Shown: positions 1 through 9,884 of the stretch, one piece after another | How positions within the stretch are numbered: position 1 is the stretch's first letter | Layout: each line of letters starts with the position of its first letter | Made by a program: the position numbers and the translations under genes | The notes under the pieces: generated by a model | The model's input: the letters and a program-made list of their open reading frames with translations, nothing else | Database searches by the model: none | Told to the model about the DNA's origin: nothing | Source: Lytechinus pictus | Taxonomy: Eukaryota | DNA: 64,000 nt | Reading direction: 5' to 3' | Assembly: GCF_037042905.1 (NCBI RefSeq) | Contig: NC_087245.1 | Span: forward strand, 34,412,001-34,476,000

Positions 1-543
1 ATTCCGAAGATTCTTTATTTCGAAGGTTCGTAATTCCGAAACACGTAAATTGCCTATACCTCGATGTTCGTTAATCCGAAAACATAAAAGGGTTCGTTAA
101 TCCGAACATTTGTGGCGTTATTCCGAAGGTTCGTTATTCCGAAGGTTTGATAATCCAAAAACGAAATAAGGTTCGATGTTCCGAAGGCTCGTTAGTTCGA
201 AAACGAAATAAGGTTCGTTGTTCCGAAGGTTCGTTAATCCGAAAACGAAATAAGGTTCGTTGTTCCGAAGGTTCGTTAGTCCGAAAACCAAACAAGGTTC
301 GTTAATCATTACGTTTTCGGACTAACGAACCTTCGGAATTACGAACCTCATTTCTTTTTCGGATCAACGAACCTTCGGAATTACGAACCTCACTTTGTTT
401 TCGGACTAACGAACCTTCGGAATTACGAACCTCATTTCGTTTTCGGGCTTACGAACCTTCGGAATTACGAACCTTCGGAAATACCAACCTTCGGAATAAC
501 GAACCTTCGGAATAACGAAGCTTCGGAATTACGAATGTATGCG
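1..543. mobile_element. Foldback/MITE-like element built of short TTCCGAAGG/GTTCGTTAAT sub-repeats; left end beyond the window
   Basis: 1-~308 is an array of GTTCGTTA(A/G)TCCGAA and TTCCGAAGG units; ~315-540 is the reverse-complement array (TTCGGACTAACGAAC, CCTTCGGAA). ORF 118-309 is only the repeat translation. Confidence 0.75.
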
Positions 544-815
544 ATATCCTTGATACTGGAGCTATGATAGAACATGGTACAATGATTGATCATGATAGTG
601 GTGAGTTCACAGAACTGTTCACAGAACTTTATGCACTATTATATCCTTGATAGTGGAGCTATGATAGAACATGGTACAATGATTGATCATGATAGTGATG
701 AGTTCACAGAACTGTTCACAGAACTTTATTCACTATTATATCCTTGATAGTGGAGCTATGATAGAACATGGTACAATGATTGATCATGATAGTGGTGAGT
801 GTATAGAACTTTATA
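544..815 (+). repeat. 97-bp tandem repeat (about 2.8 copies), each with a Hippo-linker-like coding stretch and a splice-donor-like motif
   Basis: ATATCCTTGATA starts at 544, 641 and 738. Each unit encodes GAMIEHGTMIDHDS, followed by G|GTGAGT in copies 1 and 3 or G|ATGAGT in copy 2. Confidence 0.9.
751..794 (+). CDS. Candidate 44-nt micro-exon (or duplicated exon end) of the Hippo/MST kinase linker, GAMIEHGTMIDHDS(G)
   Basis: AG at 749-750 and GTGAGT at 795-800. The phase-1 donor joins exon 1751 in frame to give ...DHDSG-TMIEHG. The acceptor is weak and the upstream phase cannot be checked. Confidence 0.35.
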
Positions 816-1139
816 TTGCCCTCTCAGTCTTTTCATCCTATGGTATTCTTTTCTTTTGTGTGACCAGGACATGGGAAGTCTTCAGGACAGTTACCATAGT
901 AACAATCAGACCCCACTGCTTGTCAGCCAATCAAAATCGAGGAAAGATGTCAGACTAACAACTTGAGTTCAGTTCTGAAAATCTAATTTCTGAGCTCTCA
1001 AATGATGTCAATTATGGAGGCGATCATATGAAACACGCTAGTGCATTGTTAGGATGCACTGCATATTTTATTTTAACGCTCTTCTATTGTGATTGGCATC
1101 TAAAAAACTTATTAAAAGTTACATATATTTACATCCCTG

Positions 1140-1309
1140 TTGGGTGTTTCATAAAGCTGTTCGTAAGATACGAATGACTTTACGCACGACTGGTGATAAT
1201 TTCTTGTGCTATGTAATATCCTTATGTAATTGAGTTATGACATAAGAACATGTTCCAGTCGTGCGTAAAGTCATGCGTAACTTTACGAACAGCTTTATGA
1301 AACATCCAC
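1140..1309. mobile_element. PIF/Harbinger-like MITE
   Basis: TIR GGGTGTTTCATAAAGCTGTTCGTAA ... TTACGAACAGCTTTATGAAACATCC, CWG flanks. Related copies at 7313 and 17164. Confidence 0.75.
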
Positions 1310-1750
1310 CAGATATGTACATTTAAACGCACTTATTTAGTTATTTTGAGATTTGAAGAAACAAAAATTCTGTCATTCCAGTTCATATTTTACATCTTTA
1401 ACTGACTGTCAGTCTATGCCAGAGATACAGTTTCTACACAAAGTGAGTGCATCCTTCACAAAAAAACATATTTCACCGTAGCTCATCATCAAAATGATAA
1501 GCTGGTATAAAGAATAGAGAACACCGGATAGGATACCTCATTTTCTTTTGACAATAAAGCATTTGTTCCTATTAAAAACAAAGATCCATACATATTGTGT
1601 ATATTTTTTGTATAAACATACATGTATCCATAGAGGGTATGATGTACATTGTGTACTCACTCCTGAAGGATATTGTACATGCTCAGAGACTATTGCGCAA
1701 TAATGGTTTGGACATCATCTCACATGAATGTTGTTTTTTGCATCATTTAG

Positions 1751-1993
1751 GGACCATGATAGAACATGGCACAATGATTGACCACGATAGCGGGACCATG
1801 ATCGACCACGATAGCGGGACCATGATCGACCACGATAGCGGGACCATGATCGACCATGATAGCGGCACGATGGTGGACCACGACAGTGGGACGATGATCA
1901 AACATGGAAGTTTGAACGACCTGGAATCCAATATGGGCACCATGGTTATTAACAATGATGACAGCGATTCGGGTAATGACGGAACGATGAAGA
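1751..1993 (+). CDS. STK3/4: Hippo/MST1/2 (STK3/STK4-type) kinase, regulatory linker exon
   Basis: tttag acceptor (AG at 1749-1750), A|gtaagt donor at 1994, phase 1-1. Peptide GTMIEH...NMGTMVINNDDSDSGNDGTMK(R) resembles the MST1/2 linker TMIEH...GTMVIN...GTMKR. Confidence 0.93.
1768..1899 (+). repeat. Coding 24-bp minisatellite: 5 full GTM(I/V)DHDS units plus a partial
   Basis: GGGACCATGATCGACCACGATAGC-type units in frame, differing mainly at third codon positions. Confidence 0.95.
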
Positions 1994-2373: not shown

Positions 2374-2630
2374 GAACAGATACAGCCAAAGCAGACGCCT
2401 ACAAACCTCAGTTCCTAGAACACTATGAGAGACAAGATGAAGCCAAACAAGCTAAGATCTCCTCACCTCCTATCAATCCATCTAACGCACCCACGGTACC
2501 TTCTAATGCCCCTATGCACGTTGCCCCTGGTAACCATCGGGTGAGTGCTCCTCCCCCTGCTAATCAAGAGGCCCCACCCCCAAAACCACTGCAATTCCAC
2601 CGGCCATTCAACGAAGCAGACTTTGATTTT
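2374..2630 (+). CDS. STK3/4: Hippo/MST kinase exon: linker end, Pro-rich segment and lead-in to the SARAH domain
   Basis: ttatag acceptor (AG at 2372-2373), gtgagt donor at 2631. (R)TDTAKADAYKPQFLEHYERQ...EADFDF resembles MST KPSFLEYFE...DGDYEF; phases fit both neighbours. Confidence 0.93.
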
Positions 2631-3798
2631 GTGAGTTTCTGTTCTTTTCATTTGTTTTTTTTTTGTTTTACTCAGCTTATTGCTTTGCTATGATTTTGTT
2701 CCACTCATCTTAAACTAACATTAAGGAAGGTTGTGATGTACATGTAGTCTAGTGAAGTACTAAAGTTTCAGAGCAAGAGAAGCTAGAGTTACGGTTGACA
2801 GGATTTTGAATTAGTTTAGAAGTCCACAAATCATTCATAACTAACACTGTTTGTGTATGATTTCAGGCGACGTTTTCATGAACTAATTCACCTCTTTTTC
2901 ATGGTCACTTTGTAGAATAAAGGGGGTGGGTAGATAGAGGGTATTATTGAAGGGAGAAGGTATGTGTTGTGGCTATGACTTTTGTCGTTCAATAAGAGGA
3001 TCACAGTTTGGAATCCCTGGGCTGAAATTGTTTATATCTGAATAAGTAAAGTAAAATTCACAGAGCAAAATGCTGAAAATTTCATCAAAATCTGACAACA
3101 AATAGCGAAGTTATTGAATTTAAAAGTTTAACAATATATTGTGAAACATAAACTTTATATGCACGTTTCCATGCATATTAATTAGGTGGGCTGATGATGT
3201 CACAACCCCACTTTCCTTTTCTATACGCCCGTACTAGACGAGACGTATTATGGTATCATGATTGGTGTTCGTCTGTCCATCCGTCCATTAACTTTTTGTT
3301 GTAAACGCGATAACTTCAGTTTTACTTAACCTAGGCTCATGTAATTTGGTGTGTATGATACTAGCATGGATCCCAGGAAGCCTCTTGATTTTGAAGTCGA
3401 AAGGTCAAAGGTCAAGGTCACAGTGATATGCTTTTATTTTACCCTTCTAAAGTCTTTGTAAACGTGATATCTTTAGTGTAATTTATCCTAGGCTCATGTA
3501 ATTTGATGTGTATGATACTAGCATGGATCCCAGGAATCCTATCGATTTTGAGGTCCAAAGGTTAAGGTCACAGTGGCATGCTTTCATCTTACCCTTCTGA
3601 AGTCTTTGTAAATGCGATAACTTCAGTTTAACTTTACTGAGGCTCATATAATTTGATATGTATGATACTAGCATGGATCCCAGGAATCCTATCGATTTTG
3701 AGGTCAAAAGGTCAAGGTCACAGTGACATGCTTTCATCTTACCCTTCTGCAGTCCTTGTAAAGGTGATAACTTCAGTTTAACTTAACCTAGGATCATT

Positions 3799-5397
3799 CA
3801 GTCAGTCTGCAAGTCCCCATGTTAATGAGCAAATGAGCAAGATTTATCCAAGTCCTCTCGTGCCTGAATTCATGTCCCTGCAAAATCTTGTGAATTGTGA
3901 GAATTTCTTTCTCAAAGAATGTAACCACTTTCTCCTTGAGTAATATTAATTATTTTTGCACCATAGGAAAGAGTAAATGTTACTCTTTTATATTGGGTTT
4001 TTTTTCTTCATATTTTGAAAAATAAGTGCACTTTTTACCTGAATAGATGCCTCAAACAGAATTTTCTTCCTCGGTTTTCACTTGCAAATTGTGCAAAATG
4101 TTGTATTTTTGGCACAAACATTATATATACAGTATCATCAGAAAGCTCAAGCTCTCTACTTCCATACAATGTCACTCTTGATATGTGACACCTTTAAGAT
4201 GGGTCAGCAGCCAGCTTTTTCCACCAAGATGCAAGACAAGATTTCTGAAATTTCTGAGTAACATGAAATTCAGAGTTCTGATTAGCTAAATAATGTTTTC
4301 AAAACAACAGGTGCGGGTAATTTGGTTAGTGTGACCTTGCAGAGGCCCAGTGTGGGGAACATTGGAATTTGCATGGGTGTGTGGTCTCTATGACCAATTA
4401 GAGAGCAGTATCGAGCACTTTTAGAAATGTACGTCCACATAGTGGACTGGTACGAGATGACGTCATTTTTTGGCCTGCCATATGCCTCACGTGTCCTCAC
4501 ACACGTCCACGATCAGAATCGAGAACCTCGCCACATCCATTTGCGGTTCTCCCAAATCATAGACGACGTGCACGTGAGTGACGTCATTTTAACTGTTCAA
4601 GCCCAGCATGAAGATCAACCTTTCCCTTTTAAAACACAGTTTTCAGCGACTTTTCACAAAATTTATGTAAGTTGTACGATGCATTATGTTTATCATATTT
4701 GAAATTGCATTCTGATCTCCAAAATATACATCGAAATATATCCTAACTCGCGTAAAAAGGAATCAAAGCAAGTGAAAGGGCACATGTGCACAAGTTGCAC
4801 CGTCGCATCACCCGACCGGGCCGCCAGGCGATGGTGCGCCAGATCTTCCGGGTCGGGCAGCGTGTCATGACCCGCTGGTTATCGCGCTGTTTCATGTGGA
4901 CGTACGTACACGTACAAGTCGAGTGAAATCTAAAGTATTCGTATCTGTAGTGAACAAGGGCAAACGATGACGTTGACTCGAAGGATCAGCTGGCTGCTGA
5001 CCCATCTAAAATACATCTTCTTATAAAAATTATATTATATTAAAGCTTAGATCTTCAGCTTTATCATAATCTAAAAATCATTTGAGGTCAAACAGAAATT
5101 AAGTGGAAAAATAACTTTAGTTACATGATAATTATTTTCTTTCATGTTTTAGATCAAAAGTTTCACCTATATCACACAATCTTTTTAAAAATCCAAACAC
5201 ATGACCTGAAAGAATGATTTTTCTTCTTTATAAAGATACCAAAAAACATTAAATTTTGTCAAAATTTAGAGCAGCAATGGCCGAATAAAAAGAGGTGTTT
5301 TCGTCCGCACCAAGCTCATTAACAATGCAAAAACCCTCTAGTCATGAATATCACTTGGATAAAAGAAGCTACTTTTTCAGGGCTTGCCGACTGACTG
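3799..5397. mobile_element. 1.6-kb non-autonomous TIR element with a 4-bp TSD (CATT)
   Basis: TIR CAGTCAGTCTGCAAGTCC / GGGCTTGCCGACTGACTG. CATT at 3795-3798 and 5398-5401; removing the element restores the host repeat unit. Superfamily not assigned. Confidence 0.8.
4197..5007. mobile_element. Probable further nested TIR element with a CpG-rich core
   Basis: Perfect 20-bp inverted repeat AGATGGGTCAGCAGCCAGCT at 4197-4216 and 4988-5007; TTAA/TAAA-like flanks. Confidence 0.55.
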
Positions 5398-6089
5398 CAT
5401 TTAATTTGGTGTGTATGATACTAGCATGGATCCCAGGAAGCCTATTGATTTTGAGGTCAAAAGGTCAAAGGTCAAGGTCACAGTGACATGCTTTCATCCT
5501 ACCCTTTTAAAGTTATTGTAAATGCCTTAACCTAGGCTCATATAATTTGGTGTGTATGATACTAGCATGGATCCCAGGAATTCAGGAGTCAAAGGTGAAG
5601 TTTCCACTTTTCTTACTTGACCAATAACTCAATTTTCCGCGTTACAGGCGGGCATATTATGTGCTCGCCTTAGTGACACTCTTGTTTTATGTTATTAGAG
5701 GAAATCATAATTGTTTCATTTTTTTCATACAAATGATTGCTTCCCTTATAATGAAGAAAGTTGCAGCAATGAATATCTAATCCACGAAATCAGTTGTCAA
5801 TCCAATTTTTTTATTTTTAGAGGAAAAATTTGAATAAACCCTATTTCATATAATAAAATACAAAAGAACAAGTGGTGATATGACATCATCAGTTTGCTCA
5901 TTGAATATTCATGAAGACATGCCTAGAACTGTTTCACCGGAATAATGCAAATCTTTAAAATATCATAACTTTGTTATTCCTTGTCAGATTTTGATCAAGT
6001 TTTCAGTGTCTTGTTTTTCTGATTTTCCTTTATCTGTTCAAATCATTATTTTCATCCTGGAGTACCCCTTTAAGCAAGAAATATACCTG

Positions 6090-7244: not shown

Positions 7245-7638
7245 AGGGTACCGAAGCGATGACGTCGGTTGCCATGGTGTCATGGCGGCCTGGTTCTAAA
7301 CAAATGAACCAGGGGGCCATTTCATAAAGTTGTTCGTAATTAGGAGCGACTCTACGAAGGACTGGTGATCCTTTCTTACGTGCTAAACCATCGCCAATTT
7401 TTATACACCATTTACCTCAAGAAAGGATCACCAGTAGTTCTTAAATTCGCTCTTAACCTACGAGCAGCTTTATAAAACGGCGCCCTGTTATGACTCTCAG
7501 AATGATGGTAACAACCAGGGACAAAACACATCACCATTTTGCAAATACAAATGTGTATAGACGATCGTGCAGCTGCGACTCGGTTTAGAACCAGCCGGAT
7601 CGTTGTCATGACATCGTGATGTCACATTTTGGTACTCT
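7245..7638 (-). mobile_element. Non-autonomous TIR element (ISL2EU-like) retaining the start of a THAP-like domain
   Basis: AT|AGGGTACC ... GGTACTCT|AT termini; minus-strand MVMCFVPGCYHHSESHN from 7537; interrupted by the MITE at 7313-7484. Confidence 0.55.
7313..7484. mobile_element. PIF/Harbinger-like MITE (family of 1140-1309)
   Basis: GGGGCCATTTCATAAAGTTGTTCGTAA ... TACGAGCAGCTTTATAAAACGGCGCC. Confidence 0.7.
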
Positions 7639-9725: not shown

Positions 9726-9884
9726 TTGAAGCAGCTATCAATAGATGAATTACGGGAGAGATTAACGTCGTTAGATCCCCAGATGGAAGCAGAGATTGAG
9801 GAGCTTAGGAAGCGATATCAGGAGAAAAGGAGACCGATCATTGAAGCCATGGAGGTCAAGAGAAAGAGAACGCAGCATTTTTAA
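9726..9884 (+). CDS. STK3/4: Hippo/MST kinase terminal exon, SARAH domain
   Basis: Pyrimidine tract and cag acceptor (AG at 9724-9725). LKQLSIDELRERLTSLDPQMEAEIEELRKRYQEKRRPIIEAMEVKRKRTQHF* closely resembles the MST1/2 SARAH domain; TAA at 9882-9884. Absent from the ORF track. Confidence 0.96.
   Translation: MKQLSIDELRERLTSLDPQMEAEIEELRKRYQEKRRPIIEAMEVKRKRTQHF

What the first reader, a model, noticed from the sequence alone, without database searches (positions are those of the whole stretch)
544..815. Intronic tandem array of in-frame Hippo-linker exon ends (possible cassette micro-exons)
Seen: three 97-bp units each encode GAMIEHGTMIDHDS-G, nearly the same peptide that opens exon 1751 (GTMIEHGTMIDHDS). 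Apart from T>A, the differences are synonymous third positions (GGT/GGC, GAT/GAC, CAT/CAC, AGT/AGC). Each ends at a phase-1 donor position that splices in frame to 1751. Copy 1 keeps the donor but has AC for AG, copy 2 keeps AG but has AT for GT, and copy 3 keeps both. Inference: repeated duplication of an exon or exon end could let splicing or copy number change how many Thr-Met docking sites the kinase carries.
Basis: partly seen in the sequence, partly recalled or inferred. Interest (0 to 1): 0.7.

Follow-up and report, generated by a model that had tools for sequence, protein, structure and literature searches.

The report
Silent repeated splice donor, urchin Hippo
The end of one exon of a sea urchin growth-control kinase gene, together with its splice signal, has been copied several times into the next intron; the copies look like an ordinary, mostly ignored repeat of a kind already known from human and lancelet genes, not like extra mini-exons.

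Summary
The 97-bp array (544-800) is real, but the copies are not cassette micro-exons. The window's exons match Lytechinus pictus Hippo/STK3-4 at 219 of 219 residues. That protein has a second GTMIEHGTMIDHDS unit, with Thr, at the end of the preceding exon E, which lies before base 1. Each repeat is the last 51 nt of E plus its phase-1 donor and a short intron piece. The synonymous pattern is inherited from E. All 4 laid runs hold the unit in an 85-bp form, including runs with the L. variegatus-type exon. No database isoform carries the Ala version (0 of 43). This is an exon/intron-boundary minisatellite like human F7 IVS7 or amphioxus 'mirages'; the scan noted the same kind before, twice in this genome (RCE1, UBR2). 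Thr-Met site number does vary, but through the 24-bp coding repeat inside exon 1751. Low-level pseudo-donor use is not excluded.

The parts
1..549 (.). Palindromic MITE-like repeat (42- and 16-bp subunits in two inverted arms), left end off-window; abuts copy 1 and in this haplotype lies between exon E and the three copies
   Evidence: Inverted arms 121-288/313-480, 86% complementary; tandem subunits; no second copy in the window; 'MITE' label is inference from shape
544..640 (+).
641..737 (+). Copy 2: exon-E end 647-697, donor broken (AT at 698), spacer
   Evidence: contigs of X3 and X4 read G at 698 (table 3)
738..814 (+). Copy 3 (terminal): exon-E end 744-794, intact GT pseudo-donor at 795, 20-nt flank diverged from the unit (edge of array)
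   Evidence: X10 record 8 runs from 769 into the unique intron (table 8)
605..616 (+). 12-bp internal duplication in spacer 1 (also 702-713 in spacer 2) that turns the 85-bp unit into the window's 97-bp unit
   Evidence: 12 letters left out at 605 (X1, X10) or 702 (X3, X4): 4 of 4 runs (table 4); X4 record 23 is 115 bp = 85 + 30
1751..1993 (+). Hippo linker exon (phase 1 to phase 1), 9 Thr-Met motifs from here on; holds a 24-bp coding tandem repeat at 1774-1899
   Evidence: 0 mismatches to L. pictus isoforms; TRF; spliced joint 1993 to 2374, GT..AG, in X1 and X4 (table 5)
2374..2630 (+). Next exon, with an alternative donor after 2540 (isoforms X3/X4 lack 30 residues)
   Evidence: both forms match L. 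pictus isoforms with 0 mismatches
9726..9884 (+). Last coding exon, SARAH domain
   Evidence: Pfam Mst1_SARAH PF11629, E 2.7e-22; 52 of 52 residues identical to P0030

Best explanation
An exon/intron-boundary minisatellite ('mirage', donor pseudo-site array). An 85-bp segment made of the last 51 nt of linker exon E and the first 34 nt of the following intron was duplicated in tandem and has since changed in copy number and been homogenised by unequal exchange (inferred). In this haplotype the unit gained a 12-bp internal duplication (97 bp) and a MITE-like element lies between E and the three visible copies. Splicing uses the authentic, most upstream donor of E and joins it to exon 1751; the copies are removed with the intron and add nothing to the protein. 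Shown: the array, its match to the end of E, E's phase and donor in a relative, the frame outcomes, presence of the unit in four runs. Inferred: that E itself is the first monomer and lies shortly before base 1, that the pseudo-donors are silent, and the mechanism of turnover.
For: Window exons joined in a script match L. pictus isoforms X1/X2 over 219 of 219 residues and X3/X4 over 189 of 189; the 22 residues before exon 1751 end in DIDSGTMIEHGTMIDHDS with Thr. tblastn finds no place in the window for the rest of E. 0 of 43 proteins then held contain the Ala form; all 12 full-length camarodont isoforms counted have exactly two 14-residue units. Logan ORF P0044 reads without a break through E and on as G-E-F, the same read-through as copy 1 (G-E-F-T), so E ends in phase 1 at a GTGAGTT-type donor and the Asp-Ser AG is internal. 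In RNA-bearing run X4 five depth bins are reproduced to rounding by the listed unit contig plus one contig of depth 64.7 lying on 744-793 and going on at 1750 (predicted 0, 0.91, 12.38, 45.98, 18.6; observed 0, 0.91, 12.4, 46, 18.6); a start at 751 predicts 7.95 and 44.2 instead. That puts the mRNA match start at 744, 7 nt before the supposed exon start. The changes between copies in the exon-derived part or donor (2 of 2) alter a residue or break the donor. The terminal copy's outer flank is diverged, as described for mirage cluster edges (PMC3087553, passages). Adjacent copies are too close to splice together in the 85-bp form (41-55 nt; minimum intron size is recalled knowledge).
Against: E's DNA was not seen (no genome held; metagenome scans empty), so 'first monomer spans the boundary' is inferred from protein. 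The E-1751 joint is not among the rows shown (97 joints and 222 letter differences hidden), so the X4 contig is a deduction from binned depth, and its base at 755 (Thr or Ala codon) was not read. The RefSeq models may come from another assembly than the window. The unit contig has depth 9.5 in X4 and begins and ends exactly at the donor (669-795), where a branch to exon 1751 would leave; this is unexplained and could mean some pseudo-donor use. Human CBS and 6-16 arrays do use the next two pseudo-sites (PMC1557585, introduction passage).
Confidence: 0.85

Rival explanations
1. Leaky donor array with a regulatory effect: a fraction of transcripts skip E's donor and use a downstream copy. E is then extended by one unit, which reads into a stop 16 codons after the donor codon in the window's 97-bp form, giving decay or a kinase without SARAH and with only 5 Thr-Met motifs; array length would tune Hippo dose.
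For: Intact GTGAG donors at 601 and 795. Read-through of copies 1 and 2 ends in a stop. X4 unit contig at depth 9.5, broken exactly at the donor (table 8). Use of two pseudo-sites is reported for CBS and 6-16. Unit-contig to flank depth ratios differ between runs: 4.2 (X1), 2.1-2.6 (X3), 6.5-8.5 (X10) (depth is a weak proxy only).
Against: F7, LMNB2 and PDGF arrays use only the first donor, and F7 mutagenesis shows an upstream-first rule. No such isoform among the urchin proteins seen. In this haplotype 550 or more bases of repeat lie between E and the copies. Unspliced pre-mRNA times copy number explains the unit contig equally well.
Confidence: 0.07
2. One reading: copies 1 or 3 act as in-frame cassette micro-exons through the AG at 570/764 (30 nt) or 561/755 (39 nt), adding one Thr-Met motif.
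For: Both exon lengths keep the frame to the normal stop. The gene already uses 10-codon cassette exons further upstream (isoform differences).
Against: These AGs have 6-10 pyrimidines in 17 against 12-13 for the three real acceptors, and one is GAG. None of 4 L. pictus, 3 L. variegatus or 4 S. purpuratus full-length isoforms has the insert. One more motif on 14 is a small change given redundancy in MST2.
Confidence: 0.04
3. One copy (copy 3) is the true exon end of this haplotype, either as a 44-nt exon after a phase-2 intron or because the MITE split E, with Thr to Ala as an allele.
For: The X4 mRNA contig was laid on copy 3 (deduced). The window's own upstream DNA was not seen.
Against: P0044 shows E continuous through Asp-Ser in a relative. 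Both L. pictus accessions of the 611-residue isoform have Thr. Six bases shared by the repeat end and the unit spacer precede copy 1, so the insertion falls in spacer, not in exon sequence. The laying tool puts a contig on any fitting copy.
Confidence: 0.04

Closest known systems
Human exon/intron-boundary minisatellites with 5' pseudo-sites: F7 IVS7 (37 bp, 5-9 copies), LMNB2 (100 bp), PDGF intron 4 (81 bp), CBS IVS13, 6-16 (PMC1557585; abstract, outline and 12 passages read)
   Same: Unit spans an exon end and its donor; donor reiterated in the intron; unit size close to LMNB2 and PDGF; annotated mRNA uses one exon end.
   Different: Long exon-derived part (51 nt, 17 codons) that happens to resemble the next exon because the linker is itself repetitive; few visible copies; array split by a MITE-like insertion; echinoderm gene.
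Amphioxus 'mirages' (Adh3, globins BflGb6 and BflGb9; PMC3087553; 6 passages read; supplements not read)
   Same: Invertebrate deuterostome; tandem copies of an exon boundary (BflGb9: 3' boundary of exon 2); 3-6 units differing between haplotypes; edge units excluded from homogenisation; no reported effect on splicing.
   Different: Unit 85/97 bp against 150-160 bp or 10-72 bp; here the unit is shared by samples with L. pictus-type and L. variegatus-type exons.
Thr-Met docking motifs of human MST2 linker (PMC4511216, 5 passages; PMC5663475, 8 passages)
   Same: The host exons encode the same motifs; seven in MST2, redundant for MOB1 binding, three for SLMAP-mediated feedback.
   Different: The urchin protein has 13-14 motifs, expanded by a 24-bp coding repeat; the intronic copies carry the Ala form at the first motif, the change used in those papers to inactivate a site.

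Membership tests
Exon/intron-boundary minisatellite (F7-type, mirage) | Tandem units each containing exon end, donor and intron start | tested here: met
   51 nt matching the end of E by protein, donor identical in read-through to P0044, 34/46-nt spacer
Exon/intron-boundary minisatellite (F7-type, mirage) | First monomer is the authentic exon boundary, directly upstream of the array | not testable with these tools
   E lies before base 1; no genome held; metagenome scans found nothing
Exon/intron-boundary minisatellite (F7-type, mirage) | Variation in unit number or form between alleles | tested here: inconclusive
   Unit form differs (85 bp in 4 of 4 runs, 97 bp in window: shown). Number: depth ratios 2.1-8.5 suggest variation but contig depth is not a copy count
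Exon/intron-boundary minisatellite (F7-type, mirage) | Mature mRNA uses the authentic (first) donor | tested here: inconclusive
   All database isoforms have one E end with Thr; X4 bins fit one exon end joined to 1751; rare use of pseudo-donors cannot be seen in contigs
Tandem cassette or mutually exclusive micro-exons | Each unit has its own acceptor (pyrimidine tract plus AG) duplicated from a parent exon's acceptor | tested here: not met
   The AG is coding sequence inside E; mRNA match starts 7 nt upstream; other AGs are purine-rich
Tandem cassette or mutually exclusive micro-exons | Inclusion keeps the reading frame | tested here: not met
   44-nt exon from AG 750 stops after three codons; of 18 AG-donor pairs tried, 5 stay open to the normal stop, all from weak AGs
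Tandem cassette or mutually exclusive micro-exons | Isoforms that include a unit exist | tested here: not met
   0 of 43 proteins carry the Ala form; 12 of 12 camarodont full-length isoforms have exactly two 14-residue units. Annotation misses rare isoforms
Hippo/MST1/2 kinase gene (host) | C-terminal SARAH domain and Thr-Met linker, STE20 kinase domain in the full protein | tested here: met
   PF11629 E 2.7e-22; identity to L. pictus STK4-like isoforms; kinase exons lie outside the window

The most novel reading that the evidence does not exclude
The array is a length-variable dial on Hippo output: in alleles where the 85-bp units follow exon E directly, a share of transcripts use a downstream donor and become stop-bearing (decayed, or a SARAH-less kinase with 5 instead of 14 Thr-Met sites, akin to the caspase-cleaved form), or take one unit as a 10-13-residue micro-exon, so that array length, shared by two Lytechinus lineages, modulates growth signalling. 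The one hint is the X4 unit contig that breaks exactly at the donor.
Probability: 0.07. Interest if true: 0.5.

Novelty: new member of a known kind. Interest (0 to 1): 0.14.

Why it matters
As it stands it is one more example of a known oddity, useful mainly as a warning: such copies attract short-overhang junction reads and can create false exons in annotation (compare PMC10632439, passages). If pseudo-donor use scaled with array length it would link a minisatellite to dosage of a core growth-control kinase. The more solid biology nearby is the expansion of Thr-Met motifs in camarodont urchin Hippo (13-14 against 6-10 in other ambulacrarians), a natural test bed for the open question of why the motifs are redundant (raised in PMC4511216, discussion passage).

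Tried and rejected
No whole genome is held, so exon E and the left end of the array could not be read. Metagenome scans with a 26-nt motif (0 stretches) and with P0044 (553 pattern matches, 0 confirmed) gave nothing. Run search: no RNA holder listed as such; 24 runs listed, 4 laid; X1 and X4 show a spliced joint. The lay was crowded by two multi-copy repeats at about 900-960 and 1130-1320 because I set likeness to 82, so 97 joints, 222 letter differences and most pieces were hidden; the E-1751 joint was not displayed. Parts without cover, noted only here: X3 and X4 have no depth at 530-602 and X10's depth there is fully explained by the unit contig from 575 (28.0 bases), so the MITE-copy 1 junction was not seen in these three runs; X4's bins leave no room for a third contig such as a cassette junction, but contigs drop rare forms; single-copy intron bins are empty in X4. 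X1's bins could not be solved uniquely. Two other placements of the X4 joint (794 to 1751, 795 to 1752) do not fit the bins. Assembly artefact was rejected for the unit as such (4 of 4 runs), though the 97-bp form was seen only in the window. Pfam's Gp5_trimer_C hit on the linker exon (E 5e-4, below cut-off) is a repeat artefact. In one search the motif counts for P0007 and P0013 were zero through a faulty anchor and were redone; there the Diadema linker end was not found, so its count of 9 runs to the C-terminus. Paper searches for a description of this locus found none: (5 papers listed, none on it); one search gave no divergence date that I read, so none is cited. Look-ups of earlier findings by place and sequence gave nothing relevant.

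Full report
Observation. The array is as described. Tandem Repeats Finder reports a 97-bp unit, 2.6 copies, 97% matches at 544-800; the 26-nt core occurs at 564, 661, 758 and 1756 and is not expected by chance (0.00 in 100 shuffles). Six of 14 codons differ from the start of exon 1751, five silently and one as Ala for Thr.

Host gene. An ORF at 9699-9881 hits Pfam Mst1_SARAH (E 2.7e-22). A search with the 1751 exon returned 22 proteins among 6987 candidates, led by sea urchin STK3/STK4. The window's exons 1751-1993, 2374-2630 and 9726-9884 give 0 mismatches over 219 residues to Lytechinus pictus isoforms X1 and X2, and with the alternative donor after 2540, 0 over 189 to X3 and X4. The window thus holds the 3' part of the L. 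pictus-type Hippo gene; the kinase exons and the preceding linker exon (called E here) are before base 1 (tblastn).

What the units copy. In all four L. pictus isoforms the residues before exon 1751 end in DIDSGTMIEHGTMIDHDS. L. variegatus and S. purpuratus proteins, and a Logan-derived full-length protein, have the same two 14-residue units (12 of 12 camarodont isoforms counted). The repeats read L-D-S-G-A-M-I-E-H and so on, so they match the end of E from the Ile codon onwards: 51 nt (744-794 in copy 3). None of the 43 proteins then held has the Ala form. A second protein search with E's region, among shorter proteins (5 hits of 11 candidates), returned P0044, a 54-residue ORF from a Logan contig whose sequence follows the Strongylocentrotus form. 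It runs without a break through D-I-D-S-G and ends G-E-F-L, that is, it reads on into the intron at a phase-1 donor. Copy 1 reads G-E-F-T at the same place.

Splicing arithmetic. With E ending in phase 1, I tried 18 AG-donor pairs. Reading on through a spacer, as extension to a downstream donor would need, meets a stop in copies 1 and 2. In the 85-bp form neighbouring copies are 41-55 nt apart between donor and AG, too short for an intron by general knowledge (recalled).

Reads. Of 24 listed runs I laid four, all as contigs. X1 and X4 show the 1993-2374 joint (GT..AG). All four hold the unit with 12 letters left out at 605 or 702, so the common unit is 85 bp (51 + 34); X4 record 23 is 115 bp, one turn of an 85-bp loop. 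X3 carries the exon form of the L. variegatus protein (24 letters left out at 1780, G at 1825), so the array is shared by both types. Unit-to-flank depth ratios are 4.2 (X1), 2.1-2.6 (X3) and 6.5-8.5 (X10); the tool warns that depth is no copy number, so this is only a hint of length variation. The E-1751 joint was not among the displayed rows (97 hidden). However, X4's bins can be solved: record 23 plus one contig of depth 64.7 on 744-793 that continues at 1750 predicts 0, 0.91, 12.38, 45.98 and 18.6 against observed 0, 0.91, 12.4, 46 and 18.6; a start at 751 predicts 7.95 and 44.2. The deduced start, 744, is where the protein match to E begins. This is a deduction from rounded depths, does not say which copy or E supplied the sequence, and the base that tells Thr from Ala was not displayed. 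One point stays unexplained: record 23 begins and ends exactly at the donor, where a branch to exon 1751 would leave the loop.

Mechanism. An 85-bp piece spanning E's end was duplicated in tandem; unequal exchange keeps inner copies alike, while the outer flank of the last copy has drifted (16 of the first 20 nt match the copy-2 spacer without its duplication, then unrelated). The window's haplotype added a 12-bp duplication to both spacers and a palindromic MITE-like element (1-549) in front of copy 1. The spliceosome most likely takes E's own, most upstream donor. Shown: anatomy, template, phase, frame outcomes, presence in four runs. Inferred: position of E, silence of the copies, mode of turnover.

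Comparison. This is the arrangement of human F7 IVS7 and of the LMNB2 (100 bp), PDGF (81 bp), CBS and 6-16 arrays (PMC1557585: outline, abstract and 12 passages); the first three use only the authentic donor, the last two also use two pseudo-sites. The scan's notes list the same kind in this genome at RCE1 and UBR2 (not checked by me). Membership of the cassette micro-exon class fails on acceptor, frame and isoform tests. Searches found no paper on this locus.

Verdict. Real, explained, a new member of a known kind; interest 0.14. A regulatory role through leaky pseudo-donors is possible at about 0.07.

Noticed in passing
window 1774-1899 (exon 1751) and proteins P0030, P0006, P0025, P0003: The 24-bp coding repeat has 5 units in L. 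pictus, 4 in L. variegatus, 6 in S. purpuratus. Linker Thr-Met counts: 13-14 in camarodont urchins, 9 Diadema, 10 starfish, 8-10 sea cucumbers, 6 Saccoglossus, 7 in human MST2. This is where docking-site number really varies.
   Followed up: partly
intron between exon E and window 1751; proteins P0045, P0012, P0018, P0044, P0039: Possible lineage-specific intron gain: three ORFs from unnamed contigs (one matching the Holothuria protein) run through the whole linker without a break, whereas urchins of the Lytechinus/Strongylocentrotus group have a phase-1 intron exactly between two 14-codon duplicates that Diadema lacks. Fits intron gain by internal duplication; Diadema gene structure not seen.
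   Followed up: partly
window 2541 and 2631: Two alternative donors 90 nt apart remove 30 residues that include the F-H-R-P-F...F-D-F stretch before SARAH; short and long forms occur in L. pictus, L. variegatus, S. purpuratus and Diadema proteins, so this alternative splice is conserved.
   Followed up: partly
window 1124-1325: A second inverted-repeat element in the same intron (arms 1124-1166/1283-1325), very high-copy in all four runs and related to 7320-7478; X10 record 8 joins 769-1137 to sequence further on with fewer letters between, suggesting this element is absent there.
   Followed up: no
proteins P0030, P0031, P0006, P0029, P0025, P0004, P0002: Two 10-residue cassette exons just before exon E are included in different combinations across urchin isoforms: the gene does use micro-exons, but upstream of the window.
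   Followed up: no
window 3299-3797 and 5385-5580: 150-bp tandem repeat (3.3 copies) with a dispersed relative in the long intron before the SARAH exon.
   Followed up: no
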